NCBI RefSeq assembly: GCF_025526975.1
Contig: NW_026515682.1
Location: 434,001-498,000, forward strand
Direction: 5' to 3'
Source of the DNA: Fimicolochytrium jonesii
Lineage: Eukaryota
Length of the DNA stretch: 64,000 nt
Part shown: one piece after another, positions 1,847 to 64,000 of the stretch
How positions within the stretch are numbered: position 1 is the first letter of the stretch
Layout: the number at the start of each line of letters is the position of its first letter
The notes under the pieces: model-generated
What the model was told of the DNA's origin: nothing
The model's database searches: none
Seen by the model: the letters and a program-made list of their open reading frames with translations, nothing else
Translations under genes and position numbers: made by a program

Positions 1847-2638
1847 GTTGTTCGTATGGAGTATCTATTGTAGACGAGATGGATCAGACTTATTAAAGCC
1901 TGCGCAACGCTCACGTGATGAAACCCACGTGATGGAACGCTTTCTCGGACGCTCTTTTGGCCACCTGTACCGTACAGTACACCCTTCTGGTACTACTGTA
2001 ATTGCATTCTGACAACACTGGCGCTTTGGCACAGTTGAATATTGCTCTCCTTGCAGACGTGCAGGTAGCGAGTTCAATTCCCACTCCCAGACAACTTCTT
2101 TGTTCAGATTATGACCCCTGTCGCGCTAGGCGCGGCGTGGTAACTACTGTCGCGCTCGGCGCTTCGTGGGTGTTAACTGAACAGCACAACTACCGTAGGT
2201 ACTATGTATCGCAACAGAAAGCAACCTTACCCACTCTCAAACAGCTCGAGCCACGACCATTTTTCCTCTGCCTCACGGTCCCTTTCGTTTTATTCCTGCT
2301 GAAACGGGTTGTTTATAAACACTCCCTCTCAGACTGCAGATCGAATTCAGTTGCCGTCGCCGTCGTAGTCGCTCTGCATTCTGATCTCATGGACCGTTCC
2401 GCTCTCAACTCCCGCGATCGATGGAGACAGCCCGGAATAGGGGCAGCCTCGCGATTCGCTCTATGAGAGAGCGTGTGTCAGGAGCAGTGGAGATGGCGGA
2501 GACAGTTGTCTCGGAGACAATGATGAACTCACCCTCATGCAAATGCATGATCCTCCTCCTCCCACAACTCGGAGCCCGCTGTCTCGTCGCCACCAGATGT
2601 AGATCCGTATGATGACACGGACTCCGAGTGTGGGACCC

Positions 2639-2913
2639 TGTAACGTCAGAGGAAATGTAGACGATATTGCGCCCTTCTGAGAGGGCTGAGAACAGTGTAT
2701 TGTAGTGAAGAAAAAAGTAAGAGGCTCTTCGCAGCGGCCGCTCGACTGACAGCTTTATATATGGGCTGCCAGTGGGGCTTGCGTGGCTTCAGTGAGGCTT
2801 GGCACCTTATGTAATGTATCACCGAGAGCGCGGGTGGCCAGCCCGGATCTCGGATCAAGTAGAAGTAGAGAGATATAATGTGAAATACATGTGAAGATGA
2901 GATATCCCCGACA
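2639..2913 (-). repeat. LTR of family A (complete, 275 bp)
   Basis: TGTAACGTCAGAGG...ATATCCCCGACA. Near-identical copies lie at 8444-8508 (partial) and 12067-12335. Confidence 0.95.
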
Positions 2914-3274
2914 CCTCCCTCAGATCCTGAGGAGGGCGCCGCATAAATAAGAGGTGAACTACGAGGGATATGTGAAGAAAGGGAGAGCTCATGTTCATTT
3001 TAAAGTGTTGACGCACTTGTTCATTTTATAGTGTTGACGCACTGTGTGATGTGTGTGTTTGAGGCAAAAGCGTCCCTAAGCCGACGTCGTGTGTGATGTG
3101 TGTGTGTAAGGTCGGTTCTTGCGTCGCCGCGCGTGATGTGATGTAGTTTATGTCGCTATTGCCAGCGGTGTGATTGATAGTGAGCAGTTGTTGCGGCGTC
3201 GCGCATGTGATGTGATATGAGATGCTCTATGCTGTTTGTCTCCGTATCCACAAAGATTGTGGGTGAGCTTTTCG

Positions 3275-4587
3275 TTATCGTTTGTAGGCAGGCGTGTAGC
3301 AAAGTGCGGATTTGGGTTCCCAAGTAGGGTCTGGATAACCGAGCCATTTGACTAGAAGATTTCGTACGGCGCGTCGCTCGTCGATGATGTCTTCTACAAC
3401 CCATTCAGGTTGTCCGTGTTCTTCGATTGGTGGAGGAGGCTGTGGAACTGCACGTTGCGGATATTGCTCTTCGCAATGTGGTCGTAAAATATCGACGTGA
3501 AAGATGGGCCAGATGCCGCTGATCTTTGATGGTGATAAATCGAGTTCGTAGGTATCAGGATGTGCTCCCAGTGCGATGATTTTGAATGGTCCGATCCACG
3601 TAGCTGAGTATCGTAGTCCTCTTCGAGCGTCTACTTCTAGGTTGCCAATTCTGTATGCGATTGGCGTTCGACCTTTGTCGTGTTCCCGTGCGAATTGATC
3701 TTGCGATCTCTGAAGGTTTTCGCGTACGATACGGGCGATGTCTTCCTGCCCTTTCTTGAAGAGTTCGATTTCGTTTCGATTTACAGCTCGAAGTTTGAGT
3801 TCTTGTCCTTCGAGAATTGGATTCCAACCCGGGAGGATTGGAGAGCGTCCGAGATCTACTTCGAATGGCGATAAACCTTCATATTCCCCCTCGGAGCGGT
3901 ATTGTATGCGAATTTGATTAAAGGCAATAGTTTCTTCCAATTGCTTTTGTCGTAGTTGAGGTATTGCTTCCAAATCCTTTTCAGGGTTTGGATGGCTCGC
4001 TCAACTTTGCCGTCAGTTTGCTGATGACAAGCCGTAGCAAGTTTGTGTTTTACACCGAGGAGAATATCGAATGCGAGGAAGAAGTCGGAACGTGCGCAAG
4101 GTTCGCGATCCGTAACAAAGACTTTTGGCGTACCGACATGTTTCCAAACATGATCTAGAAAGACTTGGGCTAGTTTGCGTCCAGTAATCGTCTTCTTAAT
4201 CGGTGTCAGAATCACATGTCCGGAAAGATAATCAATGCAGACAAGACAAGAGTTTGTTTCATCTACTTCGAAAATGTTGAATCCGACCGTGTGCCATCTT
4301 CCAAAAGGTATAGGAAGAGGTCAGAGAAATTCGTATCGACGATGACCAGGTTTGAATTGTCGACAGGATTAGCAAGTTCCAACGTATTTGATGACGTCGG
4401 AGCGTACGGTAGGCCAGTAATAGTCCGTAAGAATTCTTGCGAGAGTCTTCTTAACATTGAGATGTCCTCCGGTGGCGAGTTCGACATGGAATTTCCGCAA
4501 AATCTTTGGGCAAATGTCTTCAGGAACGTATAGACGTCCTTCGTGTCGTACTAATCCATTTTCGAACGTATAACGGAGTTCTTTCAA
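3275..4587 (-). pseudogene. Integrase plus C-terminal chromodomain of retroelement A, broken by frameshifts and stops
   Basis: GGHLNVKKT..YYWP..DV..YVGTC zinc-binding region, VTDRE core, HQQTDGKVER, WIGPFKI (GPF/Y), chromodomain EWVVEDIIDER..LVKWLGYPDPTWEP. The domain is split over three ORFs. Confidence 0.93.
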
Positions 4588-4608
4588 AGTTTTCTCGTGT
4601 TGGGGATT

Positions 4609-6360
4609 TCAAGAAATTTCATCGAGATAATCCGAATATGGATCTTCGCGTAGCGCTTTTTTCCATACTTCTTCTGAGCAAGTAGGTGAGTTTTGTGGAT
4701 CGTCTGTCGTAGCGTTGGAGGAAGGTTCGTTGACAAGCATACTGCTGATCTGCGTATGCATGTCGAGGCGTCGTTGACAATCTACACACCGAGGCGCATA
4801 GATTGGATTGCGGGAGAGCATGTCGGCGATATGATTCCATTGTCCAGGTAAATACTGGATGTCAAAATCATACTCTTGTAGCTTCTCCACCCAATTGGCT
4901 TGTCTTCTGCTCAAATGTGGTTGCGTTTGGATGAATTCGAGTCCCTTGTGATCGCTAAAACATTGAAAGTAACGACCGATGAGATATGGTCGCTTGGCGA
5001 CCAACATCTTGACAAGAGCTAAGAGCTCCTGTTCGTGCGTAGGATATTGAGTTTCTGCGTCCTTCATCTTTCTAGAGAAGAAGACAACAGGCCGGAGCCG
5101 GGGTAACTTCTTCCATTGTCCGACAAGCGTAGGCAGATTTGTAGGGATCGTTTCATTGCCAGAAGGTTGTCCAATCCAGCGAGCGATAGCGTAGCCTGAT
5201 GAGTCAGTATAGACGTAAATTGGCTTGGTTTCATCGATTGTTGCTAGGGTAGGCGCATTGATCAACGCTTCTTTCAACTTTTGAAATGCCTCTTGTTGCT
5301 CAGGACCCCATCGAAATTTGACTTTCAAAGATTGAATACTTGATAGGGGCAGAGCGATGTCCGAATAACCTTGTACGAAGTCGAGGAAATAGTTTGTGAA
5401 CCCGAGAAAGCTTTGAAATCCTTTTGTTGACTTTGGAGTAGCCCAATCTTTGATAGCTTGGATTTTCGAGGGCGCGATGCGAACACCATGTCTTCCAACA
5501 ATATGTCCACACCATTCGAGTTCTTGTTTAGCCCATACGCACTTTGAAGGATTGATGAAAAGGGCGTGTTCTTCAAGTTTCTTCAGGATACGATCGACGT
5601 GTTCCCGATGTTCGGCTAAGGTCTTCGAGAAAATAAAAATGTCGTCCAGGTAAGTAGCGAGAAATTCATGGTAATCTTTATGGAAGATCTTATTCATAAG
5701 ACGTTGAAATGAAGCAGGTGCGTTGGTAAGCCCGAACGGCATGACCAAATACTCAAAATGTCCGAAGCTAGTTTGTATTGCTGTTTTTTCTTGATCTTGT
5801 TTTCGTATAAGAAGACGATGGTATGCTTCTCGAATATCGATAAGCGTAAACCATTTACAACCTTGAATTCGATCCCTCATCTCACGAATATTGGGTAAAG
5901 GAGTGCGATCTTTCTTGGTGACGGCGTTGAGACCTCGGTAGTCCCAACAGATGCGTAATCCGCCATCTTTCTTTTTCGCAAAGACGACACTAGCTCCCCA
6001 GGGACTTGAGGAGTGTTGTATCCATCCTTTTCCGAGCATCGAGGTGATTTGTTTCTTAAGTTCAGCGAGTTCTTCTTTGTTCATGTGCCGAAGAGGTTGC
6101 CAAACGGGTTCAGCACCTTCAGTGAGTTCGATCTTGAAATTATCTTCTCCGCGATCAGGGGGTAGACCTTCCTGTTCCTTGAAAAGCGTATTGACGTATT
6201 TATTTAGGATATCCTTAAGATGTCCTGGATTTCCTTTAAGCTCTTGAGGAGCGTCCGGTATTTTGTTAAGAGCAAGGCAACAGACCATGTCTTTTTCAAA
6301 CTTGTTCCGTTGCCAAGCCTTATTGAATCCCTTGGAAGTCATTTCTATGATGAAGGGCAT
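4609..6360 (-). CDS. Reverse transcriptase-RNase H of retroelement A
   Basis: KKDGGLRICWDYRGLN, VMPFGLTNAPASFQ, YLDD, YTDSSG, HEQELLAL, SDHKGL. Confidence 0.96.
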   Translation of the reverse strand: MPFIIEMTSKGFNKAWQRNKFEKDMVCCLALNKIPDAPQELKGNPGHLKDILNKYVNTLFKEQEGLPPDRGEDNFKIELTEGAEPVWQPLRHMNKEELAELKKQITSMLGKGWIQHSSSPWGASVVFAKKKDGGLRICWDYRGLNAVTKKDRTPLPNIREMRDRIQGCKWFTLIDIREAYHRLLIRKQDQEKTAIQTSFGHFEYLVMPFGLTNAPASFQRLMNKIFHKDYHEFLATYLDDIFIFSKTLAEHREHVDRILKKLEEHALFINPSKCVWAKQELEWCGHIVGRHGVRIAPSKIQAIKDWATPKSTKGFQSFLGFTNYFLDFVQGYSDIALPLSSIQSLKVKFRWGPEQQEAFQKLKEALINAPTLATIDETKPIYVYTDSSGYAIARWIGQPSGNETIPTNLPTLVGQWKKLPRLRPVVFFSRKMKDAETQYPTHEQELLALVKMLVAKRPYLIGRYFQCFSDHKGLEFIQTQPHLSRRQANWVEKLQEYDFDIQYLPGQWNHIADMLSRNPIYAPRCVDCQRRLDMHTQISSMLVNEPSSNATTDDPQNSPTCSEEVWKKALREDPYSDYLDEIS

Positions 6361-7011
6361 TGGCTTGAGCGAATCGAGATACGTAATGAGGTGCGGCTTG
6401 TAGAGGACGAGTATCCACAGGTTTAATGATCCGAACAGGTCGAACGGGTCTTTTGTCTATGACTGGATCTTGTTGCACATTGAAGTAAGGGTTGTTGTGT
6501 TTCGGGATGTATTCGACGTCTTCCTAGTTTCTTGAAGTTCTTTTGCACTTGATGGTGACAGACTGCGGTGCGTTTGGTATAGGGCCGTAATTGGTCCAGC
6601 AAAGGATAGGTAAGGTACTCATCGAGATTTGTTCATCGTAATTAAAGAAACGCCAGAAAGGCATTCCAATAATAGCGTCGTAAGCCAGATTACTGACTAG
6701 CCAGGGAAGTTGTCCAACTAAGAAAAGCAACTGAGATTCGAGACTTTTCTGAAACGACCGTGTCGAGAAGCATGTATGATTCTTTGTCGGCCAGCCATAT
6801 CTGCTTCGGTTCGATACGTTCCTTGGGAAATTTGTGCTTTTCAACGAATGTCTTATCAAGGAATAACCCAGTTGCACCGCTATCAAAAAGAACACGAGCA
6901 AACTTGTTTCCGATGCGACAATGAGAGACCCAGAGTCCAGCAGACAGTGGTTCGAAGACGGTTTATCGGTAGGATCGTATGTTGTAGGCCGAGCAGGGCT
7001 ACCGAGGGGCT

Positions 7012-8349
7012 CTATCGACCTTCAAAAAAACACGAAGATTGATTTGTAGTAGTATTCGTAGTATTCGCAGAGTTGACGGCGTCATCGAGAATTTCCGTAA
7101 TGCGTGACCCAGCATCAACCTGATTGGCTGAACCTTGTTGTTGATTAGGTTGGCGACTGCGCTGCGGAGTTTGAGCGCCACAACCGCGCTGTCGAAAACC
7201 ACCGCGTCGGTTCTGGATTTGCGAGCCTTGCTGTCGATTTTCGGGATTTGACCAGCATTCAACTCTCCAAAGTCCCATTTTATTACAAAGGGGACAAGGA
7301 GTCGTTGGACGTTGACGAGGAACGTGCGTAGTTTGCCATTGTCCACATCGACAAAAGGGCTGTTGACGTTGGTAGGGAACTTGACCTGTAGTGAGACAAC
7401 TCACTCCAGTGGGATAGTATGACGTACCGAGGGCATTGAGCCCAAAGGTCATATCATCTAAGTCTTGCTCGAATTCCGTAATTCGAGGATTGGTGTACGG
7501 GGCAAATCGTCCGCCACGACCACCGCCACGACTACCCCAACCGCGACTGGCTCCACGGCCGCCACAAGCACTGGTTGCCGAGGCAACCGGACGAGGTGTA
7601 TTGGCTTGGTTGCCATCAGTGAACCCATGAGCCACATGAGCACGACGGGCTGCAGTGATAGCTTGATCGAGAGTGATAGGGGTGTTGATGTTGGTAGTCT
7701 GCGAGACTTTGAAGTTCGTAGCGGCTTCAACGAGATAATGACCGATTACCGTATTCTTGAGAAGACCGGCCTTGAAGTATCAAATCTGATCGATAAGGGG
7801 AATGGTGCCTTGACTGTTATCGAGACGATGAGCGGCTTCGAGCTCATTATTGGTGTCTTGAAACTCCTTGAGATATTTCTCGAGAGAGTCACCGAGCTTG
7901 AGGCGGGAGAGCTTGAGCTCAATAGTATTACGCGAGTTGCGAGGATAAAAGTGAGCGACAAGAGCCGTTTGAAAAGCTGTCCAACTCGCGGGAGCGCCAG
8001 TAGCGTAGGTCATATTGTACCACTTGAGAGCAGTACCCTTGAGGTAGGTAGTGAGTGTAGGAGCGTACTCTGCCATAGTAAAGGCTATGGCGTTCGCAGC
8101 TCCAGTACCGTCTGGTCCAGCTTGTACAGCCAGGACCGTGAGACACTCGAGCAAATTGCTGTGAGACGTAACAAACTCTTCGATCTTCTTGGCAGCTTTG
8201 GCGCCATCGTATTCGACGAGCTTGTTCTTGCAAGCGTCCATAAGAAGTTTGAAACGTTTGGCTCGTTGGACGTCCTGCGTAACAGCACGGTCCCAAGTAG
8301 CGAAAGCAGCTGCGACAGCCGCAACGATAGCTTGAGTTTGTTGGTCCAT
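7012..8349 (-). pseudogene. Gag of retroelement A (capsid plus Cys/His knuckle region), interrupted by stops
   Basis: LKGTALKWY...SWTAFQTALVAHF retrotransposon Gag motif, an RGG-rich segment and a CPLC...C knuckle. It lies between the PBS and pol. Confidence 0.85.
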
Positions 8350-8508
8350 TCTTGCTTGTGAACGAGTGTACGGGCGACGTCCGGTAGAGGGGCGACATTG
8401 ACAAGGAATGCCTTGGTGATTCTAGCGGTAGGTGGTGCTACCATGTAACGTCCGAGGAACCGTAGACGATATTGGGCCCTTCTGAGAGGGCTGAGAGCAG
8501 TGTATTGT

Positions 8509-10474
8509 CCTGGTCAGGTTGGAGGAGAACTGCGCCGAGAGCAAAGTCGGAGGCGTCAGTTTCGACGACGAATGGCTTCTCTGGGTCAGGGTGAGCAAGG
8601 ATGGGGGCGGTGGTGAATGATTTCTTCAGGTTCTCAAAGGCGGTGTTTGCAGCGGGCGTCCAGGCGTACGGGATGTCTTTCCGGGTCAGGGCTGTGAGCG
8701 GGGTAGCGATCTTGGAATAACCTTGGATGAATCGGCAATAGAAGTTGGCAAAGCCGAGGAAGCGCTGGACGCCTTTGACATTCTTGGGAGGTTCCCAATC
8801 CGTGATGGCAGCGATCTTCTTGAAGTCCATCTGGATGCCTTTCTCGGAGATGATGAAGGCTAGGAACTCGACAGATTCGCGGTCAAATTCGCACTTCTCG
8901 GGTTTGGCGTACAACCCATGCTGGCGGAGGCGGGACAAGACTTCGCGGACGTGCTTGGGGTGATCTTCGGGGTTCTTGGAGAATATCAGGATATCATCAA
9001 GGTAGACAACAACAAACACATCGAGAATGTCGCGGAAGATGTCGTTCATCAGGTACTGGAAAACACCAGGAGCATTGCTGAGTCCAAAGGGCATGACATT
9101 GTATTCGAATAGGCCGTAGCGGCAGCGGAAGGCGGTCTTCCATTCATCGCCCGGGCGCATGCGTAAGAGGTTGTAAGCGCCGCGGAGGTCGATCTTGGTG
9201 AGACGGCGGGCACCGCGCAAACGGTCCATGATACCGTTGATCAGGGGCAGGGGGTAGCGATTCTTCACCGTGATGCTGTTCAGGCCTCGATAATCGACGC
9301 AGAGGCGGAGAGAACTGTCCTTTTTCTTCACGAATAAGACTGGCGCACCGGCAGGGGACTTTGAGGGTTTGATGAATCCTTTGGCGAGGTTTTCTTCGAG
9401 GTATTCCCAGAGTGCTTTCATTTCTGGTTCGCTGAGGCTGTAGATCGGGCCGAAAGGTGGCTGCTTGCCTTCTTCCAGATCGATTGGACAGTCGTAGGGC
9501 CGGTGCTCGGGGAGAGTGTCAGCATTTTTCTTTTCGAAAACGTCGGCGAAATCTTGATATTCGGGGGGCAGGAAGTCTTTGATGTTTTTCTCGGGTGTCG
9601 GGGGGTTACTGGGGCTAGGCAAGACCGGGAGCTCGGGTTTCGCAGGGTTGGCGTAGGCGACAAAGACCTGGTCATGCCTTGCAGCGACCCGGAAGGCTGG
9701 GGTGGAGATGAACGAGACTCGGAGCGGCATGGGAGCCGGTTCTGGGGTGCTGGAGCGAGATACCTTGGGTACTGGAATTGACCATGTTTTGTCGACGGGG
9801 ACTTCATCCTGGGGGATGCGGATCAAGGGCTCGGGGGTTCTGGCAGGTGCTGGGCTCGGGGGTGCCAGGGAGTGGTCCCAATTCGTGAGTTCATGGTCCT
9901 GACAGTTGCAATGGAAACCGACCGAAAGGTTCTTGAAGTCAAGGTTAATGTCATGGAGGCGGAGCCAGGGAAGACCAAGGAGGATTGGCGCGTGAGGTGA
10001 TTTGGTGACATGGAAGACGAGTTCTTCGAAGTGGTCGTCGACCCACATGCCTACTGGTTAGGTGTGATGGGTGATTGGCCCAGCAGAGCTGGGTTGACCG
10101 TCAACGAGTTCGATCGTCAGGGGACGCTGATGGGGGACTAGGGGGATGCGGTGTTTGCGGGCAAAGTCTCTGTCGATGAAGCAGGACAGGGCCCCGTTGT
10201 CGATCATGGCTGAGGTAGGTATTGGGGCGCAGCTGGATGATACCATGATGGTATCGTGGTAGTTGAAGGGTTCGACGGGACCCAGCACAAGCAGGGTGCG
10301 TGGGTTAATTTCGGAGTTTTCGACATGGGTGGCGGCTAGGAGGGTTGTGTTGGCTATAACGGAGTCGGGAACCGGGGGGGTGGCCTCTTCCGTTGCAGGA
10401 GCTGCGAGGTTAGGAGGCCCAGAGGAGTGTGTGTAGTCCAGTCGCTGGGGCTTTACTGCGGCTGGACCTTGGGA
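8509..10474 (-). pseudogene. Pol (protease-RT-partial RNase H) of element B, -1 frame relative to gag, with an in-frame stop at 10058-10060
   Basis: Protease AMIDNGA...ILLGLPWL; RT KKDSSLRLCVDYRGLN, MPFGLSNAP, YLDD; RNase H start ETDASDFALGAVL. Confidence 0.93.
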
Positions 10475-11460
10475 AAACCCTGTTCCGTGGAGGTTTCTTT
10501 GATGTCGACGTTGGCGGCACGGGTGGTGGTCTTGTTCTTGGCTGGGCAGGCCTTTGCAATGTGCCCCGCCCCACCGCAGTAGAGGCAGAGGTTGTTGGAA
10601 ATGCGGCGTTGGCGTTCCTGGGGGCTCAGAGGGCCGCGGGGACGAGCGGCGTCAATCTGCATGGGCTCGCTGTGGTCGACGGTGGTGGTAGTGGTAAACG
10701 AGGTATGGGGGACTGGGAAGGTCTGGCGGGTTCTGTTTTGTTCCAGGTGGCGCTCAAACAGTCGGTTATCGCACTGGATAGCCTGCTCCATCACCGTATC
10801 AATGGTGGCAGCAGGAGGCATTGTGAGCATCAGATCCTTCACGTCCTCTTTGAGGCCACGGCGGAAGGTAGCAATCAGGGCCTGGTCATTCCAGGAGACA
10901 TCGCATTGTAGCTGGCGGAACTCGGCGATGTACTCGGTGGCTGCACGGGTTTGGCGAAGGTTCTGGAGCTTGTTCTCAGAGGTGCGGACCCTGTCGCTGT
11001 CCCTGAAGACAGATTGCATCTGACCGATAAAACTATCGAAGTTCTGAAGGCTGTGATCTTGGCGTTCGACTAGGGGCGCCATCCAGGCTTGCGCAGTGCC
11101 GGTGAGGTAGGTGCCAATCGTTTGGATCTTGATGATGTCGCTGGGGTAGCGGTCGGGCTGGAGAGCAAACATCAACCGGATGTTGTTCAACCACCCACGG
11201 AATTTGCTGCAGGTACCATCAAACTTCTCAGGCGAGCTGATTCTTGGCTCCAGAGCTCCGGGAGCAGGGTTGGGGACTTGAGGACGGGTGTACGTATTGG
11301 CTTGGACCTGGGCGGCAATGTTCTGGGCAGCTTGTGCGTTGGCTTGGGCTTGCGCTAGGTTGGCCTGCAAGTTGGCGTTTTGGCTTTGCAAGGCGGCAAT
11401 GGCTTGGCACATATCAGTCCATTGCTCGGCGGTGAAAGGTACGGATTCGGATTGGGACAT
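10453..11460 (-). CDS. Gag of element B (PEG10/RTL1-like capsid with CCHC zinc knuckle)
   Basis: SPEKFDG..FRGW, LTGTAQAW, EPMQID, CLYCGGAGHIAKAC. Likely ATG at 11460 (MSQSES). Confidence 0.93.
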   Translation of the reverse strand: MSQSESVPFTAEQWTDMCQAIAALQSQNANLQANLAQAQANAQAAQNIAAQVQANTYTRPQVPNPAPGALEPRISSPEKFDGTCSKFRGWLNNIRLMFALQPDRYPSDIIKIQTIGTYLTGTAQAWMAPLVERQDHSLQNFDSFIGQMQSVFRDSDRVRTSENKLQNLRQTRAATEYIAEFRQLQCDVSWNDQALIATFRRGLKEDVKDLMLTMPPAATIDTVMEQAIQCDNRLFERHLEQNRTRQTFPVPHTSFTTTTTVDHSEPMQIDAARPRGPLSPQERQRRISNNLCLYCGGAGHIAKACPAKNKTTTRAANVDIKETSTEQGFPKVQPQ

Positions 11461-11528
11461 GGCGAAAAGGTGTGGCAGATGCAGGGTTGGACAGGTTCTG
11501 AACTTCGCAGTGTTGGAGCGGATCAAAC

Positions 11529-12066
11529 TGTTATGATCTCGACGACTGAGGCGGAAGCGAAGTAGAGAAGACAAGGCGAGAGCGATGGGCGACAAGAGAT
11601 TGTATTGGCGAAACAAGAGACAAGGACTAGAACAAGAGATGAGAAGAACTGGTGTTGATCTGCTGGGGAGGAAGGGAATGGACGAAGAGAGGCCGGCTAT
11701 TTATAGATAGGCAACCCAGCAGGCCAGAGAACAACAACAACAAGAGAGGACTGGGGGGGCGCCAGCTATGCTCCTAGAGCGTGCGTGGCGAGCGTAGAGA
11801 GCATTGCTACAGCTGCTGGCTATGGAGAAGTAGTGGGGGATGTGGAGAAGCCGAGGGGGGATTGGCGAAATGAGAGGAGAGAGGAGGAGTGGCAATATTG
11901 CGGGAGGATTGGCAAAATGAGAGGAGAGAGGGGGAGTGGCATTGACATTGACATTGACACTGACATTGACACTGACATTGACATTGACATTGGCGTTTGA
12001 CATTGGCGGTTGACATTGGCGGCTGTCAATAGGTAAGCTTATGGTATGGGCGCGTCGTCCATAACA
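11529..12066 (-). repeat. LTR of family B (538 bp) with internal tandem repeats
   Basis: 6-bp inverted termini TGTTAT/ATAACA. Minus-strand TATAAAT at 11699-11705. Contains a duplicated ~42-bp unit and a (GACATT)n hexamer array at about 11940-12020. Confidence 0.85.
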
Positions 12067-12335
12067 GTCAGAGGAGACGTAGACGATATTGGGCCCTTCT
12101 GAGAGGGCTGAAAGCAGTGTATTGTAGCGAAGAAAAAAGTAAGAAGCTCTTTGCAGCGGCCGCTCGACTGACAGCTTTATATATGGGCTGCCAGTGGGGC
12201 TTGCGTGGCTTCAGTGAGGCTTGGCGCCTTATGTAATGTATCACCGAGAGCTCGGGTGGCCAGCCCGGGTCTCAGATCAAGTAGAAGTAGGGAGATATAA
12301 TATGAAATACAAGTGAAGATGAGATATCCCCAACA
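12067..12335 (-). repeat. Family-A LTR copy into which element B inserted (first 6 bp missing)
   Basis: Aligns with 2645-2913 and ends in CA at 12335. Confidence 0.93.
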
Positions 12336-13222
12336 GAGGCTGCTCTCCACCGACGTATACTCCTCGTCATCATCATCAGCGTCGTCGGAGGCGGGGGTAA
12401 AAGCCCGCACTTCCTCGGCCTTCTGCTTTGCAGCGGCCAGGCGCGCTCGGTGTGCGTCAAAGAGGGGCGTGGTGTGGGCCTTCATCGCCTGGCGTGTTGT
12501 TGAACCGCATGTCTCCCTCACTAGCTTAACGCCCTCCAGTGCCCCTCCTCCTCTTCAGGCATGGCCAGCTCCTCCTGCGCCATCTCGTCATACCCCTCCT
12601 CCTCCTTGTGACCGGTCGTCGGGGTGGGCGCTGCTGCTGCTGCTGCTGCGGCTGCGACCCCTGCTATGGCGGCAGCGCGGGTGGGGCGGGTGGGGATGGG
12701 GGCAGGGTTGAGAAGGGCGGAGATTGGGATGGGGTTGGGGATTAGGGCGGGGTTGAGGAGGCTGGTGATTGCAAAGGGGTTGGGGATAGGGGCGGTGGGA
12801 GCGGCAGCGGCGACGGGAGGCTGGGGGGCGGAGACAGGGGGAGCGGCGGCAGAGACGGGGGACTGGGCGGTGGAGACGGGGGTTGGGATGGTGGAGACGG
12901 GGGGATGGTGGGCGGAGACGAGGGGCTGGCGGGTGAGGTGCGTGGTGGCTGGGGCGGGTGCGGGGAGGGTGGTTGAGGGGACGACGGGTTTGCCCGGGAG
13001 GGCAGCGATGGCGTCCAGATATGCCTGCGCGCGCCCACACTTATTGCAGGCTGCCCTGGCTGTGTTGACGTTGTTCACAATGCCCGTTCGCCACGCAGCG
13101 GACGTCCGAGCCCCGCAAACAACGCAGACTCCTCCAGGAGTAAGGCAGGAGTAGTTTCGGTCGTCCCTACCCCTGCCTGCTCCAGCACCAGATTGAGTTC
13201 GGCGTGGGGGTGCTTTGGGCAT
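12336..13222 (-). pseudogene. GATA-like zinc-finger protein with a Pro/Ala-rich repeat region; 3' part frameshifted and interrupted by the LTR
   Basis: CVVCGARTSAAWRTG...ACNKCG (C-X2-C-X22-C-X2-C with T..WR). ATG at 13222. An acidic tail continues in another frame up to the LTR at 12335. Confidence 0.6.
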
Positions 13223-13602: not shown

Positions 13603-14140
13603 CTACTCCTCATTGTCGTTCTCGCCAACCTCGTTCCCATTCTGGCTCCCACCATCATCATCATCATCCGCCGCAGGCTCCTGACCTTGAAACTGTGCAA
13701 GGTCTAAGTAGGATTGACAGTCATACATACACCTGAGTCGTTGTCCTCTAAGAGCAATGGTAAAATTCCTCATGACTTCTCTCATCCACCCTTTTACCGT
13801 CTGCGCTGAAATGCAATCCAGCCCTTCATGAATAAGATGGGGAAGGATGTCCTGAGTAGCTCAAATTTCGTGACAACGAATGAAGGGCTTGACGCTGCCA
13901 AAAACCCATTCTGCGCAGTTGAAAAATGGGGTATAAGAGGGGAGCATTTTCAGCGTATGGCCCGCATCTTGGATAATATCCTTGATAACACGTCGACGGT
14001 CGATGGGTGCATTGTCCATAATAAGAACTTGGTTGGCTTCGTCGATTCTAGGGATGACATCGTCTCGCAAGAATGACTCGAAGACCGCTGCTGTTGTCGT
14101 CGTGGCCATGTTCAAGCGAGATGCGAGAACACCGTGATTT
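13603..14140 (-). pseudogene. Tc1/IS630-family (DD34E, DDE_3) transposase C-terminal remnant
   Basis: GVLA...TTTAAVFESFL...LIMDNAPID...GHTLKMLPSYTPFFNCAEWVFGSVK, with 34 residues between D and E. In-frame TGA at 13861-13863, then ...TVKGWMREV. The N-terminal HTH and first Asp are missing. Confidence 0.88.
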
Positions 14141-15142
14141 CTTGCCACTTGCTTCTCTTTCATGCGGGCCATTGCCTCTGCCTTTCCGCTGGCCAGCTCT
14201 CTTGCGGCTAACGCCTTTTCGCCCTTCCTTCAAGCTTTCTCCGCCACAGCCCTTATCGTCGCTATTTCCTTCTCTCGCAGTCGCTGGGCCTTCAACGCCG
14301 AGAGACGGTTTCTCTCCGCCTCCATCTCCTCCGGGGTGCGACAATCTGTAGTCTGAGAGGGAGTGTTGTAAACAACCAGTTTCAACCACAACTTCCTTTT
14401 AATAGTTACCGTACCCCTCCCCCTTTTCTTCTCTGCAGATAGAGAGATGGTTGTGTGTGTGTGCAGACCATCCGATCGAATGTCTATAAAACGAGTGGTA
14501 TGTGTGAAGGGGAATAAAGTACCGAGTTCCACAACAGGGTCTTCGGAAAGGTGTGCCGAATAGCTTGCATTCTCTGCACTGCCAAAGGCGCTTCCTTCTC
14601 AAAAAAAAAGTCCCGCAATCACCTGCAACACCTGTACATGTACACACACCAGGAAGCTACCTTTACACGCGTGTAAAAAACGTGGGGATCCTCACTCCCA
14701 ATTACATACCACCCTTCCTTCCTACCAACCTTCCTTCCCAACCCCCTTCCTTCCCAACGCAATTGTGAGCAGTAAGCATCCCCGGTTTCACCTTCAACCG
14801 CCACCAGGTAACAACCGCAATTCCTCACCATTCTCAGCCTCATTACCACAGCACTGACGTGAGTTCCTTGACACACAGCTGTCACGGCAATCACCACCCG
14901 TCTCGGCTGACTTAAGGCACAGCACGGCCATCATGCCATCACACCAGGCGCTCCAGAGGCACCTGTGGTGTGGCATCTTTACCGGAGCTACCACACCACG
15001 GCGGTAGAGGAGGAAGGTTGCTCCGGTTACCCCGCGGTTGCCCATACGTCTGCCAACCGCTGTGCAGACACCATTGCAACCACCCCCGCGATTCGAGTTC
15101 CCACCTTCTGTCCATCGCCACTTGCCCCAAGCAATTGCAGAC

Positions 15143-17951
15143 ATGGTTAGCGAGAGTTCCGGCGCTGAAGACGGGCAGCAGCAGCAGCAACAGCAGCGAG
15201 GGCTTTCACCCGGGGACAGGGGTCTGCAGCGTCGGTTGAACCTCCCCGCTCCCATCCCTTTCCTTTTTTCCAGCACACCGGGTGGATCCCTGGTGTATGA
15301 ACCCCCGCCACCACCACCACCAATTCAACGACCCCGCCTGCAAACACATGCCAGCACCAAGGTTTCGCTTCACCGAGTCATCCATAATCAGAATCAAGCT
15401 CAAAGGGAGCGCCTGACAACGTTCATCGGCAATGTTCACGTCCTTGCGCGCCACACCACCTTCTTTCTCAAGTACTACCTTGGTGAGTTTTTGAGGTACA
15501 CTGTATATTTCCCATAGTATTTCCCATAACAATGTCCTGACTACTACGTCTGCCCACCGCAGCTGATCAACCTCTACGCAATTTCCCGGACATCACTGAC
15601 AAGCACATCAGTGTGATGTTTGAGCCGCTCAACAATCCAGGCTACAACGGCAATCCAGTCATTGCGCAAGAGTTGCATCCATGGGTTCAAGACTACTGAG
15701 ATGTTCACGGATTCGCCCCCATCTGCATGCGCCAACAGACCGCAGCGAACAGGGCTTAGAGCATCTTCACAAACCTCAAAGTTAACGTACAAGAGCATTT
15801 CATGCAAATGTTTCTGCGCTACGTCAATGAAAGGCTTGGTTTGAACCAAGTCATACTGCATCTCCGTAGAGCTGGAGTCAATCAAGCGCAGCGGCGACAC
15901 TATTATCAGCGTGTCCGTCAGTTTAAAAAGTATGCGACGTTTGAAGAGTTTCCAACCAAAGAAGATTTTGCGCGCCTCACACGACTTGAGCGGACCGTCC
16001 TCGACAAGATATGGGCTCTGTTTCCTCCCCAGGATGAACCGCTTGCGTACAGCCTTGCGGTGGACGCAATGCCATATTTAGGTGAGTTAGTATATTTCGG
16101 GCCCCCCCCGCTTCCTCTTTTGTCTAATCATGGTCCGCACCTGCCTCGCCTCATCACAGGTGCCTATTGTGAGCTCTCACGCCTCTATGAGCACCGTGGA
16201 ATGTGGCTGTTTTCCGCTATCCCGCTGCGCAAATCTCGAATACAGTCATCTGTTCGGATCGACACAAAGATCCTAACCACTCATATCCTGGCCTTGGGCC
16301 ACCATCGCATGGGGAAACTCACCGATCAACGCAAGCGGGAGCTGTGGGGGCAGTTTCTTAACGTGAATGTAAGTCTCTATCCCTCTGCGCTTATTACACT
16401 CACCTCACCTCGCTGAATGACGGATTGCAGGACAAGGTCTTCAAGCATCGAAAGAAGGTTGGTCTCAAATTTGATGGGTCAATCAGCACAAACGGGTATT
16501 CCGCTACCATCCACTTCAAGAAGCCAGGGCTCAAGTACGGCCATCGCGCCCGGAAGCGCAGCAAAGCCCAGATGCAGGAAGAAGTCAAGCAGCTGTATTT
16601 TGAGCACCACATCGCCGAACTACGGCAGGCTCCAAACATCGTCAGCATTGATCCGGGCAAGCGTAACCTCTTGTTCTGTCGAGACATCAAGAAGGAGCGG
16701 CCATTTCGGTACGTTTCAGTTGATTACTACTGCCCTGCTGTCCCCGCTACCCCCCCCCCCCCCCCGTCTCCGCCCCCAGCCCCCCGTCTCCGCCCCCCAG
16801 CCCCCCGTCTCCGCCCGCCAGCCCCCCGTCTCCACCCGCCAGCCCCCTGTCTCCGCCCGCCAGCCCCCCGTCTCCGCCCACCATCCCCCCGTCTCCGCCC
16901 GCCAGCCCCCCGTCTCCGCCCGCCAGCCTCCCGTCTCCGCCCGCCAGCCCCCCGTCTCCGTTCACCATCCCCCCGTCTCCGCCCACCATCCCCCTGTCTC
17001 CGCTGCCGCTCCCACCGCCCCTATCCCCACCATCCCCATTGCGGCAACATTCTGTTGCAGCGTTCTCAGAATGCACCACCCCATACCAGATACACATCCA
17101 ATCAACGGGCGGTCAAGACAAAGTCTCGGTACTTTCAAAGAGACATGAGCGAGCGAAAGATCAATGCCGGCATCGCTGAGATGGAATCACATATTCCATC
17201 GCACAAGAGCATGAACATCGAGGCGTTCTCAGCTTTCATCGTGGATCACATACATGCAGGTATGATGTATTATGCGCTGTCTTCAAATTTAGTAATACAT
17301 GGGCTGACATCCATCCATATCCCAGATCCCGCCCTGGATGAGTTTTACCAGGATTGAGATTCACGTCGCTCGCAGGTTCAAGGCGTTCTCACTGCGGCAA
17401 AAGTCTGAGAGCAAGCTCATTAAGAACATGCGACGCCGGTATGGAAAGAATTTTTCGGTCATCTTGGGTGATTGGAGCGATGCTGGTAAACAATGCGCTT
17501 TCAGGAGTCATCGAAGACCAAGGGGTGAGTGACCATGATTGGTGGTATCTACTATGTATTCTATTATGCTAACTCATCATGGAACAGATTCCGCACACTC
17601 TTTGCGAGAAACGGCATTCCATGCTACTTGCTGGATGAGTATCGAACGTCGTCCGTGTGCCCCGACTGCCACGGCCGTGTGAAGAAAAACATCCGACAGC
17701 GGCTGTCATCTCGGCCATGGCAAGCTAGAAAGGGAAGAATGGAATACGTCCATGGATTGGTGGGTTGCCCCAACCCCGAATGTATCAACCAAGACTGGAC
17801 ACCATTTGAGATTCCTGGAAGACGACCACTACGACTACGGATGAGAGTGCACAATCGGGACGTCCTGAGCACCAAGAATTTCCTCTCGATTGTGCGTTCG
17901 GTGGTGTTTGGCAATGGCCGCAGACCAGACGCATTCTCCCGTAACCGGTAG
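15143..17951 (+). pseudogene. Fanzor1 (TnpB-like RNA-guided endonuclease) copy 1, seven exons, about 692 codons spliced, inactivated
   Basis: GT-AG introns at 15483-15562, 16082-16159, 16369-16430, 16709-17089, 17260-17325 and 17525-17587. The spliced protein has FDGSISTNGYS, RuvC-I VSIDPG, FRYTSNQR, GDWS, KGFRTLF...LLDEYRTS (RuvC-II), CPDC...VHGL.GCPNPEC and RuvC-III NRD. Stops at 15697 and 15757; compensating +1/-1 indels at about 17355 and 17490 relative to copy 2. The start codon is uncertain. Confidence 0.93.
16763..17003 (+). repeat. 21-bp GC-rich minisatellite (about 12 units, CCCGTCTCCGCCCGCCAGCCC) inside Fanzor intron 4
   Basis: Visible tandem array; the orthologous intron of copy 2 has about 5 units. 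Confidence 0.9.
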
Positions 17952-18046
17952 TCTAGATTTCACCCCATCCCATTTTCCGTGGTGGTTATCTGCCATCCAC
18001 ATCATTGTACCTCTGCCTGAGGCGTCGCCGATGAAGGCAACTTGTA
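17952..18046 (+). ncRNA. Putative Fanzor omegaRNA scaffold / element right end (copy 1); putative guide begins at about 18047
   Basis: Identical to the copy 2 segment up to ...AAGGCAACTTGTA, after which the copies diverge. Two hairpins: GTGG-TGGT..GCCA-T-CCAC and TGCCT..GGC-GTC-GCC..AGGCA. Confidence 0.78.
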
Positions 18047-19031
18047 GAAACGAAAGGGTGAACCGCGGACGCGTTGGTTGCGGCGACACTCGTCTGAGCC
18101 CGAGGAGGTTGCTTTGATCAATGATCATAGCCAGCTCCCGTGCGAAGCCATTGCCTTGATGTGCTTGGTAAGGGATCTGCACATGTGAGCCCATACATGG
18201 TGTGGGGCCTGTGTACATGTACCCTCAGTAGCTCGGTTGACTCGCTGCTCTCGGTGTGTGGGCTTTCAGCGCGACGACGTGCTTAGGTATGATTGGTACG
18301 CAGTGGTCCCGGTTTCATACCTCCGCTGGATATAGCATTGATTGAGTGCATGACTTGCCTGCTGGTTCATGTGCATTGATCGCTGCACAGGCAAACAGCC
18401 TTGTCTAGAAGCTACATCCTTTGCCTTGTCTTCTCTGCCGAGTGCGATGTGTGATATCCTTGTGAAAACCTTGTTGGGCCCACTGGTGTGCACGAGACTA
18501 AATCGTTTTCCGCAATATACCAACACAATGTACAGTACGCATCCAGCGCCTACTCCATACAACGCTGTAAGGTATGTACTGTATGTATATACCTCCCAGC
18601 AGTCGAGCTGTCCCATGTCCAGATCGAGGAGCCACCGTTGCGAACGCGTTTCCATTCGGGCTTGCTCTGACTTGCTCTGGGAAGTTGGGTTGTTGGCGCT
18701 GAGAGTCGGAGACCCCGGCAGTGAGCAAGGCCCCACTTCTTGCAAACAAACGGTCAGCTAGTGAACGCACTTGCAAATGTAGTGGGTAGTACTTATAATA
18801 GCACCCCGCCTCTTCGCCGCCAAGTCCCCTCTAGCACTCCCTATTGTGGAGAACTTAACCCGCCAGCCGCTCCCACGTGCGCGATCATCCACCTCTCGCA
18901 AAATACTACGGCGCTTCGAAGATCGAGTGCGTTCAGAATAGGCTGCCACTTAAGGATAAAACCAGCTCAGAAGCATAGAGAGACTTTGGAAGAATCTGTT
19001 CTGGGCATAACGCCGTTACAGACTCGAGAAA

Positions 19032-34066: not shown

Positions 34067-34216
34067 ATCGAGGATGTGTTGGGAGGTGGGTTTGGGTGGA
34101 ATTGAAACGGGATGAGTTTGCGAAGGAAGTTATGCAAAATGGATCGATGCGTTGCCGAGCTCGGAAAATGGCGCAAGTGGCAGCAAAAGGAAGCTTCACA
34201 CCAACTACGGACAAAA

Positions 34217-34305
34217 CGACACCAGCAGGATTCGAACCTGCGCGTGCATAGCACATCAGTTTTCGATATTCAAGACTGACACGTTAACCACTCCGTCATG
34301 GTGTC
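34217..34305 (-). tRNA. tRNA-Ser(TGA) with a 7-nt intron
   Basis: Acceptor stem GACACCA/TGGTGTC with G discriminator, D-loop AGTGGTTA, anticodon stem TCAGT/ACTGA, long variable arm GTGC-TAT-GCAC, GGTTCGAATCC T-arm, and a TTTT Pol III terminator immediately after. Confidence 0.9.
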
Positions 34306-35515
34306 GCAGGTGTAGACAGACCACCCGCAGCTGCTCAAAAAGGTTAGCCGTGCAACCCTGGCAGTAATTCGACAGAATGTCATAACCACGCCCTTACGTG
34401 ACCCCACACTCTTGTTGATATTCTGAAAGTTGATATTCTGCCAGGAGGTCTTTAAGCAGGAGGACCTCATGCAATAGGTGATAGGGGTTGTGCTCATAGT
34501 AGATAGCATATAGCTTTGTTGGTCTTAGAAAAGTGCGTTGGAGTGTTGTGTGCGTTGGACTGTCGGGCACTCACTTGCCCGGCTCCACGCAGCGCGGGAA
34601 GTACCGGGTCGAGTATGATACGGATCGATGCGTTGCTGAGCTCGGAAAAGAACGGGCGCGCCGTTTTTGCACAGTTCCTTGCGTGATTGCCACATGTTGC
34701 AAACAACCAGCAGGGGCTTCACCATTCAGCACTGTTCCTTCCCCAGTCACTCGCTATTACTTGGGGATCCACCTGCACCCCGCAACCCTGCCTGCAAACG
34801 CACATAGAAACATCAATAGATTCAACCCCAAAGTATAGTACGTAGGTCTGCAACGCCGAAAGCCCGGACGCGTGCGGAACGCTTTCATTCGGTGGAATGA
34901 TAAATCAGCAGCTACCGCAAAGGCAGTTCCATGCCTGTCAGAAGCGGATGTACTCTACGGCCCAATGCCAGCGGGTGTCTTTTGTTCCGGACCTCCCTGT
35001 ATCGTGCAGCGTGCATATGGGTGCATAGAGGTGTCGTATGCGTCACTCTTGCCATCACGGACGAAGGGCATGGACGAAATCGGCCATCTCGTCTCCATTT
35101 ATTCTTCTTTTCAGTTTGAAGCCTCCGATATCTGCATCGGAGGTGCTCGGCGAACCTGGCAGGATGCCAACCTGAAGGCTTTCGTGAAGATGGTGCGAAT
35201 GGAAGCTTCACCTGAAAGCCACGAGAGCCAAGAGTGTGGGGGAACTGCGTTTGGCCGGAACGCAGCGTCACGTGTGCGTTGATTAAAACCGGCTTGAAAG
35301 AAGAGGAAACGCCCCAGGCGCAATTCCCACACGAAGACCACCCTGACCACTCCCAACGGAGATAAGGGCAACCAAAACCCACCACAACGCCGGAATCTTC
35401 CCTCGCTGCCACATCCCCCCTCGCCCCACGACAGCTAATTACTTGCCGCTATACACACAGCGTCCTCGACCACTCGCTTCTTCCCAACAACCCCTCGCCC
35501 CCACAACCGCTAACA

Positions 35516-49300: not shown

Positions 49301-49358
49301 TCAATCCGCCAACAACAGATACAAACAACATCCTCCCATATTCAATCCCTCAACAAAC

Positions 49359-61829: not shown

Positions 61830-61875
61830 GGAGTTGGCCTGGGAGTTGGCCTGGGAGTTGGCCTGGGAGTTGGCC
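61830..61875. repeat. 12-bp tandem repeat (GGGAGTTGGCCT, about 3.8 copies) in the flank of Fanzor copy 2
   Basis: Directly visible. Confidence 0.9.
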
Positions 61876-61983: not shown

Positions 61984-64000
61984 CTACCGGTTACGGGAGA
62001 ATGCGTCTGGTCTGTGGCCATCGCCAAACACCACCAAACGCACAATCAAGAGAAAATACTTGGTGCTTAGGACATCCTGATTGTGCACTTTCATCCGTAG
62101 TGGTCGTCTTCCAGGAATCCCAAATGGCGTCCAGTCTTGGTTGATACATTCGGGGTTGGGGCAAACCACCAATCCATGGACGTATTCCATTCTTCCCTTT
62201 CTAGCTTGCCACGGCCGAGACAACAGCCGACGTCGGATGTTTTTCTTCACACGGCCGTGGCAGTCAGGGCACACGGACGACGTTCGATACTCATCCAGCA
62301 AGTAGCATGGAATGCCGTTTCTCGCAAAGAGTGTGCGGAATCTGTTCCATGATGAGTTAGCATAATAGAATACATAGTAGATACCACCAATCTTGGTCAC
62401 TCACCCCTTGGTCTTCGATGACTCCTGAAAGCGCATTGTTTTCCCGGCATCGCTCCAATCACCCAAGATGACCGAAAAATGCTTTCCATACCGGCGTCGC
62501 ATGTTCTTAATGACCTTGCTCTCAGACTTTTGCCGCAGTGAGAACGCCTTGAATCTGCGAGCTACGTGAATCTCATCCTGGTAAAACTCATCCAGGGCGG
62601 GATCTGGGATATTGATGGATGTCAGCCCATGTATTACCAAATTTGAAAATCAAAGTTGAAGTTGAACATCATACCCGCATGTTCGTAACCCACAATGAAC
62701 GCTGAGAACGCCTTGATGTTCATGCTCTTGTGCGATGGAATATGTGATTCCATCTCAGCGATGCCGGCATTGATCTTTTGCTCTCTCATGTCTCTTTGAA
62801 AGTACTGAGACTTTGTCTCGACCGCCCGTTGATTGGATGCGTATCTGGTATGGGGTGGTGCATTGTGAGAACGCTGCAACGGAATGTCGCCGCAACGGGG
62901 ATGGTGGGGATAGGGGCGGTGGGAGCTGCAGCAAGAGACGGGGGGATGGTGGGCGGAGACGGGGGGCTGGCGGGCGGAGACTGGGGGCTGGCGGGCAGAG
63001 ACGGGGGGCTGGCGGGCGGAGACGGGGGGGGGGGGGGGGAGGTAGCGGGGACAGCAGTGCAGTAGTAATCAACTGAAACGTACCGAAATGGCCGCTCCTT
63101 CTTGATGTCTTGACAGAACAAGAGGTCACGCTTGCCCGGATCAATGCTGACGATGTTTGGAGCCTCCCTTAGTTCGGCGATGTGGTGCTCAAAATACAGC
63201 TGTTAGACTTCTTCCTGCATTTGGGCTTTGCTGCGCTTCCGGGCGCGATGGCCGTACTTGAGCCCTGGCTTCTTGAAGTGGATGGTAGCGGAATACCCGT
63301 TTGTGCTGATTGACCCATCAAATTTGAGACCAAGCTTCTTTCGATGCTTGCAGACCTTGTCCTAAAATCCGTCATTCAGCAAGGTAATCAGATTGAATCA
63401 AGCACAGAAGGGTACAGACTTAACTTACATTCACATTGAGAAACTGCCCCCGCATCTCCTGCTTGCGTTCATCGGTGAATTTCCCCATGCGATGGTGGCC
63501 CAAGGCCAGGATATGAGTGGTTAGGATCTTTGTGTCGATCCGAACAGATGACTGGATTCGAGATTTGCGCAGCGGGATAGCGAAAAACAGCCGCATTCCA
63601 AGGCGCTCATAGAGGCGTGAGAGCTCACAATAGGCACCTGTGATGATGCAGGTGCGGACTATGATTAGACAAAAGAGGAAGCAGCGGGGGGGGGGGGGGG
63701 GGCGTAAATATACAGGATGTAACTCACCTAAATATGGCATTACGTCCACCGCAAGGCTGTACGCAAGCGCTTCATCCTGGGGAGGAAACAGAGCCCATAA
63801 CTTGTCGAGGACGGTCCGCTCAAGTCGTGTGAGGTGCGCAAACTCTTCTTGGGTTGGAAACTCTTCAAACGTCGCAAATTTTGTAAAGTGACGGACCCGC
63901 TGATAATAGTGTTGCCGCTGCGCTCGGTTGACTCCAGCTCTAAGGGGATGCAGTGCGACTTGCTTCAAACCAAGCCTTTCGTTGACGTAGCGCAGAAACA
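61984..64000 (-). pseudogene. Fanzor1 copy 2 (5' part beyond the window), inactivated
   Basis: Same exon structure as copy 1 (introns 63638-63727, 63362-63428, 62845-63083, 62604-62674, 62342-62404). Motifs SIDPG, DEYRTS and NQD are present. In-frame TAA at about 63203-63205 where copy 1 has AAG. Confidence 0.93.

What the first reader, a model, noticed from the sequence alone, without database searches (positions are those of the whole stretch)
15143..18066. Intron-rich Fanzor1 (eukaryotic OMEGA nuclease) family present in two diverged copies, allowing an intact ancestor to be reconstructed
Seen: six GT-AG introns split a protein of about 692 codons carrying RuvC-I SIDPG, RuvC-II DEYRTS, a CxxC/CxxxxC zinc finger and RuvC-III NRD. 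An inverted paralog at 61984-64000 has the five introns visible in the window at the same positions. Over the shared region the lesions do not overlap: copy 1 has indels at about 17355 and 17490, and copy 2 has a TAA at about 63204. Copy 1's two early stops (15697, 15757) are single-base reversible to CGA and CAG. Known: these motifs define Fanzor1, a TnpB-derived RNA-guided DNA endonuclease of eukaryotic transposons that is also described from chytrids. Inference: this is a Fanzor1 family that ORF-based screens would miss because it is fragmented, and a consensus could be resurrected as a programmable nuclease.
Basis: partly seen in the sequence, partly recalled or inferred. Interest (0 to 1): 0.88.

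Follow-up and report, generated by a model that had tools for sequence, protein, structure and literature searches.

The report
Six-intron Fanzor1 family in a chytrid
These are two broken copies of a many-copy fungal jumping gene whose protein is a close relative of the known RNA-guided DNA cutter SpuFz1; it differs by six introns and changed DNA-reading residues, and whole-looking copies are already annotated, so it is a likely new tool candidate, not a new kind of system.

Summary
The gene is real: six GT-AG introns, and an inverted second copy with the same five visible introns. It is a Fanzor1 of the SpuFz1 clade. A full-length family member matches SpuFz1 (8GKH) at E=5e-149 and 42% identity, with the D-E-D triad and zinc finger. 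The family is not two copies: at least 55 annotated gene models at 52 loci carry the name Fimicolochytrium jonesii, and two (761 and 693 aa) look intact. Reconstruction is therefore unnecessary, and the proposed fixes are wrong: the start is probably 70 codons upstream (14933), there is a third stop, and the 15757 column is Thr/Ser, not Gln. Intron-bearing Fanzors and splice-aware mining are already published. New details: a 75-nt 3' scaffold with the SpuFz1 omegaRNA signature ending in TA; changed TAM-contact residues, so the TAM may differ; six intron sites absent from SpuFz1 and from five related loci wherever they span them; a GATA-like gene next to Fanzor here and at 2 of its 4 other copies; a piece of that gene inside intron 4; a Tc1/IS630 transposase relic between them. 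No RNA or activity evidence. New member of a known kind; moderate interest.

The parts
14933..17951 (+). Fanzor1 gene, copy 1 (pseudogene): 7 coding exons 14933-15482, 15563-16081, 16160-16368, 16431-16708, 17090-17259, 17326-17524, 17588-17951; about 762 codons
   Evidence: 87% identical to P0022 over 760 residues; P0214 (KAI8819966) is 100% identical to its 3' part
14933..15142 (+).
15483..15562 (+). intron 1 (phase 1)
   Evidence: GT-AG with CTGAC; junction peptide in 6 of 7 spanning models
16082..16159 (+). intron 2 (phase 1)
   Evidence: 7 of 10 models
16369..16430 (+). intron 3 (phase 0)
   Evidence: 16 of 20 models
16709..17089 (+). intron 4 (phase 2), 381 nt, holding a 21-nt minisatellite and a sense-strand piece of the upstream GATA-like gene
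   Evidence: 30-nt exact match at 17000-17029; 25 of 27 models
17260..17325 (+). intron 5
   Evidence: 35 of 39 models
17525..17587 (+). intron 6
   Evidence: 41 of 44 models
17972..18046 (+). predicted omegaRNA scaffold, 75 nt: TTTTCCG start, first stem-loop with GTTATC, ends in TA; predicted guide is the next ~15 nt (18047-18061)
   Evidence: identical in both copies, whose flanks diverge right after the TA; fold; by-eye match to published SpuFz1/PpFz1 omegaRNA 5' ends
61984..64000 (-). Fanzor1 copy 2 (pseudogene, cut by the window edge); introns 63727-63638, 63428-63362, 63083-62845, 62674-62604, 62404-62342; TAA at 63205-63203
   Evidence: 86% identical to P0022 over 497 residues
61889..61963 (-). 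predicted omegaRNA scaffold of copy 2; predicted guide 61888-61874
12336..13222 (-). GATA-like zinc-finger / Pro-rich gene, candidate cargo (5' part; frameshift near 12527)
   Evidence: GATA E=0.17, below cut-off; feature score 0.85, lead only
2538..2636 (-). last 33 codons of the same GATA-like gene, separated by the nested Ty3 insertion at 2639-12335
   Evidence: tblastn 94-97% identity, E about 1e-14
13684..14148 (-). Tc1/IS630-type DDE transposase relic (C-terminal part, one internal stop); link to the element unproven
   Evidence: Pfam DDE_3 E=2e-12; 59% to P0200, 45% to P0201

Best explanation
These are two decayed copies of a high-copy, six-intron Fanzor1 family closely related to SpuFz1, whose intact-looking copies likely encode an RNA-guided DNA nuclease that would help the element persist by cutting empty sites. 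SHOWN: gene structure, SpuFz1 homology, copy number, lesions, a shared 3' end at a TA, two intact-looking annotated copies. INFERRED, by analogy to SpuFz1: (1) an intact copy is spliced and translated into a ~760-aa nuclear protein; (2) the element's 3' end yields an omegaRNA made of the 75-nt scaffold plus ~15 nt of the copy's own flank as guide; (3) the complex cuts DNA where that flank lies next to a TAM, that is the empty or excised site, and repair from the occupied chromatid restores the element; (4) protein-dead copies such as these two may still supply guides in trans, like Spu-1 ghost loci; (5) insertion is at TA, by a transposase supplied in trans. The TAM may differ from CATA, because the R96 and N133 contacts are changed.
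For: Four of five copy-1 stretches tested hit SpuFz1 first (E=9e-30, 8e-16, 3e-19, 3e-15); exon 1 hit it only weakly (E=0.93). P0022 aligns over residues 129-759 at E=4.6e-149; its model matches 8GKH at E=3e-51, TM 0.85 by target length, 42% identity. Catalytic columns: D 25 of 28, E 51 of 51, D 47 of 47; the four zinc cysteines 52/52, 51/52, 49/51, 49/49. 55 models at 52 loci. Both copies end at the same TA with different flanks; SPu-1 has putative TA duplications (PMC3627910) and a 75-nt scaffold (PMC10432273), the length found here. Between the two window copies dN/dS is 0.72, p=0.21, in line with neutral decay.
Against: No RNA, splicing or cleavage data exist for any copy here; junction support comes from gene predictions and homology. 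The scaffold's fold is not more stable than shuffles (z -0.8 to -1.6). The identical tail is one of three identical tracts of 112-126 nt, so it does not show selection. No inverted left end was found upstream of copy 1, unlike SPu-1. The fourth metal ligand N385 is Gly in 26 of 28 models, though other relatives also have DPG. Only 2 of 54 models cover residues 134-758 almost fully with all three catalytic residues. The biological role of Fanzors is itself unproven (PMC10432273 Discussion).
Confidence: 0.8

Rival explanations
1. The family is extinct: all copies, including the intact-looking ones, are inactive remnants of an old burst.
For: Models are mostly 80-95% identical to P0022 and mostly partial. 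The window pair evolves near neutrally. The N385, R96 and N133 equivalents are changed.
Against: P0022 and P0023 keep an open frame over 625 and 623 of 625 core positions with D-E-D. The changed residues are family-wide (A 12 of 12; G 26 of 28), so they predate the expansion and are not random decay.
Confidence: 0.3
2. The GATA-like gene and the DDE relic are not cargo. One Fanzor copy landed beside them and the block was duplicated a few times, or they belong to separate nested elements.
For: Only 5 GATA-like copies were found against 52 Fanzor loci; 2 of the 4 others have no adjacent Fanzor accession on my list. The DDE relic has one homolog in this species at 59%. The region is a transposon nest.
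Against: Two other copies, on different contigs, have accession numbers consecutive with Fanzor models, and in one the order puts the gene upstream of the Fanzor 5' end as here. Intron 4 of both window copies carries sequence from this gene, so the link predates the split of these copies.
Confidence: 0.45
3. The element moves by a Helitron-like, one-ended route rather than TIR cut-and-paste, which would give fixed 3' ends and variable 5' ends as in Chlamydomonas CRe-1/2/3.
For: No left TIR was found. Only 8 of 55 models include the extreme N-terminus. CRe elements show this 3' bias (PMC3627910).
Against: The 3' bias is expected from my C-terminal query and from stop-broken annotation. No Rep/helicase domain among 47 window ORFs scanned. 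The closest characterised relative is a TA/TIR element, and L001 has imperfect TA-flanked inverted ends.
Confidence: 0.15
4. It is a domesticated host gene family, the introns marking long residence as an ordinary gene.
For: Six host-like introns and an NLS-like motif.
Against: At least 52 dispersed loci, mostly broken, with a sharp shared 3' boundary at TA and no purifying selection between the two window copies.
Confidence: 0.04

Closest known systems
SpuFz1 / SPu-1 element (Spizellomyces punctatus; PDB 8GKH)
   Same: 42% identity, same fold, D383/E541/D606, Q129/Q130, Y345 and the zinc finger kept; 75-nt 3' scaffold starting TTTTCCG and ending TA; many copies with Ty3 insertions nearby; same fungal order.
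   Different: SPu-1 is a single ORF with 30-33-bp TIRs in about 2.1 kb. This family has six introns, a ~130-aa disordered N-terminus, no TIR detected, R96 to G (8 of 10) with a 5-residue loop gap, N133 to A (12 of 12), N385 to G, R291 mixed (R 8, H 4, Q 2, C 1), and a linked GATA-like gene.
PpFz1 (Parasitella parasitica; 9CF0) and GtFz1 (Guillardia theta; 9CER)
   Same: Fanzor1 fold (Foldseek E=7e-31 and 5e-19); PpFz1 omegaRNAs have a similar first stem-loop with GTTATC (by eye).
   Different: Only 16-21% identity; different insertions and omegaRNA lengths.
CrFNuc, the intron-containing Fanzor1 of Chlamydomonas reinhardtii
   Same: Spliceosomal introns, several copies, conserved 3' non-coding RNA (PMC10530073).
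   Different: Sits in Helitron2 elements; not compared by sequence here.

Membership tests
Fanzor1 (SpuFz1 clade) | RuvC triad D (DPG/DPN), E (DEY), D (NRD) in Fanzor spacing | tested here: met
   Aligned to SpuFz1 D383/E541/D606 (numbering from PMC10432273); column counts
Fanzor1 (SpuFz1 clade) | CxxC...CxxxxC zinc finger (TNB) between RuvC-II and RuvC-III | tested here: met
Fanzor1 (SpuFz1 clade) | Enlarged REC plus WED lobe, overall Fanzor1 fold | tested here: met
   Predicted model of P0022 (mean pLDDT 78); the top seven Foldseek hits are all Fanzor1
Fanzor1 (SpuFz1 clade) | Phylogenetic placement with SpuFz1 | tested here: met
   Quick IQ-TREE, 38 rows: in one 21-row group with the S. punctatus copy P0055, SH-aLRT 91, unstarred; careful search unfinished
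Fanzor1 (SpuFz1 clade) | [quoted passage not shown] | tested here: inconclusive
   Length, 5' motif and TA end match; fold not significant; no RNA data
Fanzor1 (SpuFz1 clade) | RNA-guided, TAM-dependent dsDNA cleavage | not testable with these tools
   needs biochemistry
Fanzor1 (SpuFz1 clade) | Multicopy mobile element in a eukaryote | tested here: met
   55 models at 52 loci; shared end with different flanks
SPu-1-type TIR element | 30-33-bp terminal inverted repeats | tested here: not met
   No inverted match to the right end upstream of copy 1 (best TA-anchored 16 of 30, inside a coding region). One copy only; its left end may be lost.
SPu-1-type TIR element | TA target-site duplication | tested here: inconclusive
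   Both right ends finish in TA; left ends not located
SPu-1-type TIR element | Single intronless ORF | tested here: not met
   six introns
Helitron2-Fanzor | Rep-helicase gene, or ATIR/hairpin ends | tested here: inconclusive
   No such Pfam hit among 47 window ORFs; ends unresolved

The most novel reading that the evidence does not exclude
This is a composite, TA-inserting Fanzor1 element (about 6 kb once the Ty3 nest is removed) that carries its own GATA-type zinc-finger gene and a Tc1/IS630 transposase relic. That would point to the missing mobiliser of Spu-1-like elements. Its nuclease gene gained six introns while still amplifying, one of them swollen by DNA captured from its own cargo gene, and it reads a TAM other than CATA.
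Probability: 0.15. Interest if true: 0.7.

Novelty: new member of a known kind. Interest (0 to 1): 0.42.

Why it matters
Practical: a natural SpuFz1 relative with changed TAM-contact residues, two intact-looking sequences on record and a predicted 75-nt scaffold can go straight into a TAM screen and might widen the targeting range of the best-studied Fanzor editor. Evolutionary: 50 or more copies with flanks would allow a test of whether guides match empty sites, the still unproven role of Fanzors, and of how a transposon gene gains six introns. If the Tc1/IS630 link held, it would name the transposase that Saito et al. could not find for Spu-1. None of this is a new kind of system.

Tried and rejected
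No whole genome is held, so other copies' DNA and left ends could not be read. No sequencing run was listed; no RNA holder listed, which is no evidence either way. Viral contigs: no relative confirmed among 22 and 100 pattern matches. Rfam: only a tRNA in the window. Pfam does not name the protein (best TNB E=0.003, below cut-off). Left-end searches by pattern, ungapped scan, local alignment and TA-anchored scan found nothing credible; weak local matches at 2251-2280 (5 of 200 shuffles reach it), 13778-13809 (9 of 200) and 12373-12402 (3 of 200) were rejected as non-terminal and untested for multiplicity. 'Perfectly conserved tail shows selection' was rejected. Tail versus the L001 tail is not significant (219 of 1000 shuffles). 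Earlier findings of this scan: none. Literature: no listed title ties this species to Fanzor ('Fimicolochytrium', 17 papers, 15 listed); 'Fanzor'+'Chytridiomycota' gave 1 paper that only cites Saito; 'Fanzor'+'cargo'+'chytrid' gave 0; 'Fanzor'+'intron gain' gave 1, listing only; one search returned nothing relevant. Saito supplements: 0 hits for the species in 8 of 9 held files, positive control found, but the table lists only about 3,000 cluster representatives. Jiang supplements: 0 hits even for Spizellomyces, so uninformative. Two large supplementary PDFs and one scanned file could not be read and may bear on whether this family was catalogued.
Full report
1. Observation. Splicing at the six GT-AG introns gives 2079 nt, 692 codons plus stop, from 15143. 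Copy 2 runs from the window edge at 64000 to 61889 on the minus strand, has the same five visible introns and one internal TAA at 63205-63203. Copy 1 has stops at 15697 and 15757 and a compensating indel pair near 17355 and 17490, between which five stops fall in the shifted frame. The copies differ at 79 of 1486 exon positions (5.3%) and 40 of 503 intron positions (8.0%); dN/dS is 0.72, not different from neutral (p=0.21). Shared sequence stops at 18046/61889, directly after a TA.

2. Identity. Copy-1 exon stretches hit SpuFz1 (8GKH) first at E=9e-30, 8e-16, 3e-19 and 3e-15; exon 1 hit it only at rank 5 of 6, E=0.93. A search with the last exon among longer proteins returned 13 hits of 62 candidates, all named Fimicolochytrium jonesii, at 71-98% identity; this is a chytrid of the order Spizellomycetales. 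Three cluster look-ups gave 55 family models at 52 loci after merging consecutive accessions. I dropped three unrelated 51-56-aa cluster members (P0030, P0043, P0047). This is a lower bound. P0214 is 100% identical to copy 1's 3' part. P0022 (761 aa) aligns to SpuFz1 over residues 129-759 at E=4.6e-149 with no large gap at any splice junction; its predicted model (pLDDT 78, residues 1-129 disordered) matches 8GKH at E=3e-51, then PpFz1 and GtFz1, then Cas12f/TnpB far lower.

3. The columns of the two early stops are Cys 8/Arg 2 and Thr 10/Ser 2. The two window copies differ at 60 of 497 residues: the family majority sides with copy 1 at 37, copy 2 at 20, neither at 3; 9 shared residues are not the majority; 263 residues are seen only in copy 1, 28 of them off-majority. 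Two copies therefore cannot give the ancestor. It is not needed: P0022 and P0023 cover 625 and 623 of 625 core positions with D-E-D. These are gene predictions whose DNA I could not inspect.

4. Introns. Annotated models carry the same junction peptides in 6 of 7, 7 of 10, 16 of 20, 25 of 27, 35 of 39 and 41 of 44 spanning models; this is prediction, not RNA evidence. SPu-1 is a single ORF (PMC3627910 passages; PMC10432273 passages). A metagenome scan confirmed 6 loci among 159 pattern matches; L001 and L002 are the same locus. None has an intron at any junction it spans: 6 each for L001/2, L003 and L004, 5 for L005, 1 for L006. L001 has a GT-AG intron elsewhere, and L003 breaks at the same place. 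A quick tree (38 rows; 32 of 40 long representatives plus six added; careful search unfinished) nests the family among such relatives with unstarred support of 89-93. Lineage-specific gain is the parsimonious reading but is not proven, and intron-rich relatives are under-sampled by these collections. Intron capture by Fanzors is published, up to about 9.6 per kb (PMC10530073 passages); here it is about 2.6 per kb of coding sequence.

5. The 3' end. From ATTTTCCG at 17972 to the TA at 18046 is 75 nt, the length of the SpuFz1 scaffold. By eye, the published SpuFz1 and PpFz1 omegaRNAs also open with TT(T/A)TCC and a first stem-loop around GTT(A/G)TC, and the SpuFz1 scaffold also ends in TA before the guide (PMC10432273 supplementary file 5, part 1 of 2). 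The predicted fold has that first hairpin and two small ones, but is not significant against shuffles. The first stem-loop is the conserved part of Fz1 omegaRNAs (PMC11423790 passages). The tail's 100% identity between copies is one of three tracts of 112-126 nt, so I do not use it as evidence of selection. No left inverted repeat was found upstream of copy 1.

6. TAM and active site. SpuFz1 reads CATA with R96, Q129, Q130, N133, R291 and Y345, and binds Mg with D383, N385, E541 and D606. I mapped these by hand from the alignment: Q129, Q130 and Y345 are invariant (12/12, 12/12, 22/22); N133 is Ala (12/12); R96 is Gly 8/Arg 2 beside a 5-residue gap; R291 is mixed; N385 is Gly (26/28). A different or relaxed TAM is an inference.

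7. Surroundings. Upstream lies a GATA-like zinc-finger/Pro-rich gene (13222 to 12336, minus strand) whose last 33 codons are at 2636-2538, across a nested Ty3 insertion. Its family assignment is weak. Of its four other annotated copies, two have accessions consecutive with Fanzor models on other contigs (KAI8822222 with KAI8822220/21; KAI8826277 with KAI8826276), one is 11 numbers from a Fanzor model, and one has none on my list. I assume accession order follows contig order. Intron 4 contains a sense piece of this gene, 76-81% identical with a 30-nt exact match. Between the two genes is a Tc1/IS630 DDE relic (Pfam DDE_3 E=2e-12). That Tc1/mariner elements duplicate TA is recalled knowledge. 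The relic's search gave 2 hits of 759 candidates, one in this species at 59%, so its link to the element is only a lead. Saito et al. found no transposase within Spu-1 ends (Discussion read in full).

8. Mechanism and verdict. Most likely a non-autonomous, TA-inserting element whose intact copies make an omegaRNA-guided nuclease that cuts empty sites and so keeps the element, while dead copies like these two may still give guides. Structure, homology and copy number are shown; expression, cleavage, TAM and role are inferred. It is a member of Fanzor1, but not of the SPu-1 element type as defined, since it has introns and no TIR was found. I found no description of this family in the searches listed under Tried and rejected, which do not cover subscription papers or the unreadable supplements. 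bioRxiv 10.1101/2023.08.09.552727 was searched for passages only and had no mention of introns. New member of a known kind; interest 0.42.

Noticed in passing
window 2639-12335: Two nested Ty3/Gypsy elements (gag, RT, RNase H, chromodomain; LTRs at about 2639-2913 and 12062-12335, a partial one at 8435-8508) inserted inside the GATA-like gene; the 5-bp flanks match at only 3 of 5 bases.
   Followed up: partly
window 2300-2341 and 14344-14384: 42-bp inverted match (about 90%) that brackets the GATA-like gene and DDE relic; not TA-flanked; unexplained.
   Followed up: partly
window 14859-14922: Possible seventh intron in the 5' UTR (GTGAGT...CTGAC...CAG, 64 nt), seen by eye.
   Followed up: no
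window 14633-14644 and 14662-14677: Perfect 12-bp and 16-bp palindromes in the presumed Fanzor promoter region.
   Followed up: no
window 14150-14325, minus strand: A short charged, helical-looking reading frame with one stop runs straight into the DDE relic; it does not align to the transposase homologs.
   Followed up: partly
window 49233-49826: BLUF blue-light sensor domain (Pfam E=2e-24) in a chytrid.
   Followed up: no
window 61769-61875: Four copies of a 12-nt repeat and a poly-G/C tract directly beyond copy 2's right end; the predicted guide abuts them.
   Followed up: no
L001 4458-4484 and about 6995-7020: A related metagenome Fanzor1 locus has imperfect TA-flanked inverted ends, a tail starting TTTTTCCG and ending TTTGTA, and one intron at a site not used by the window family.
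   Followed up: partly
window 34216-34306: tRNA-Ser(TGA), minus strand.
   Followed up: no
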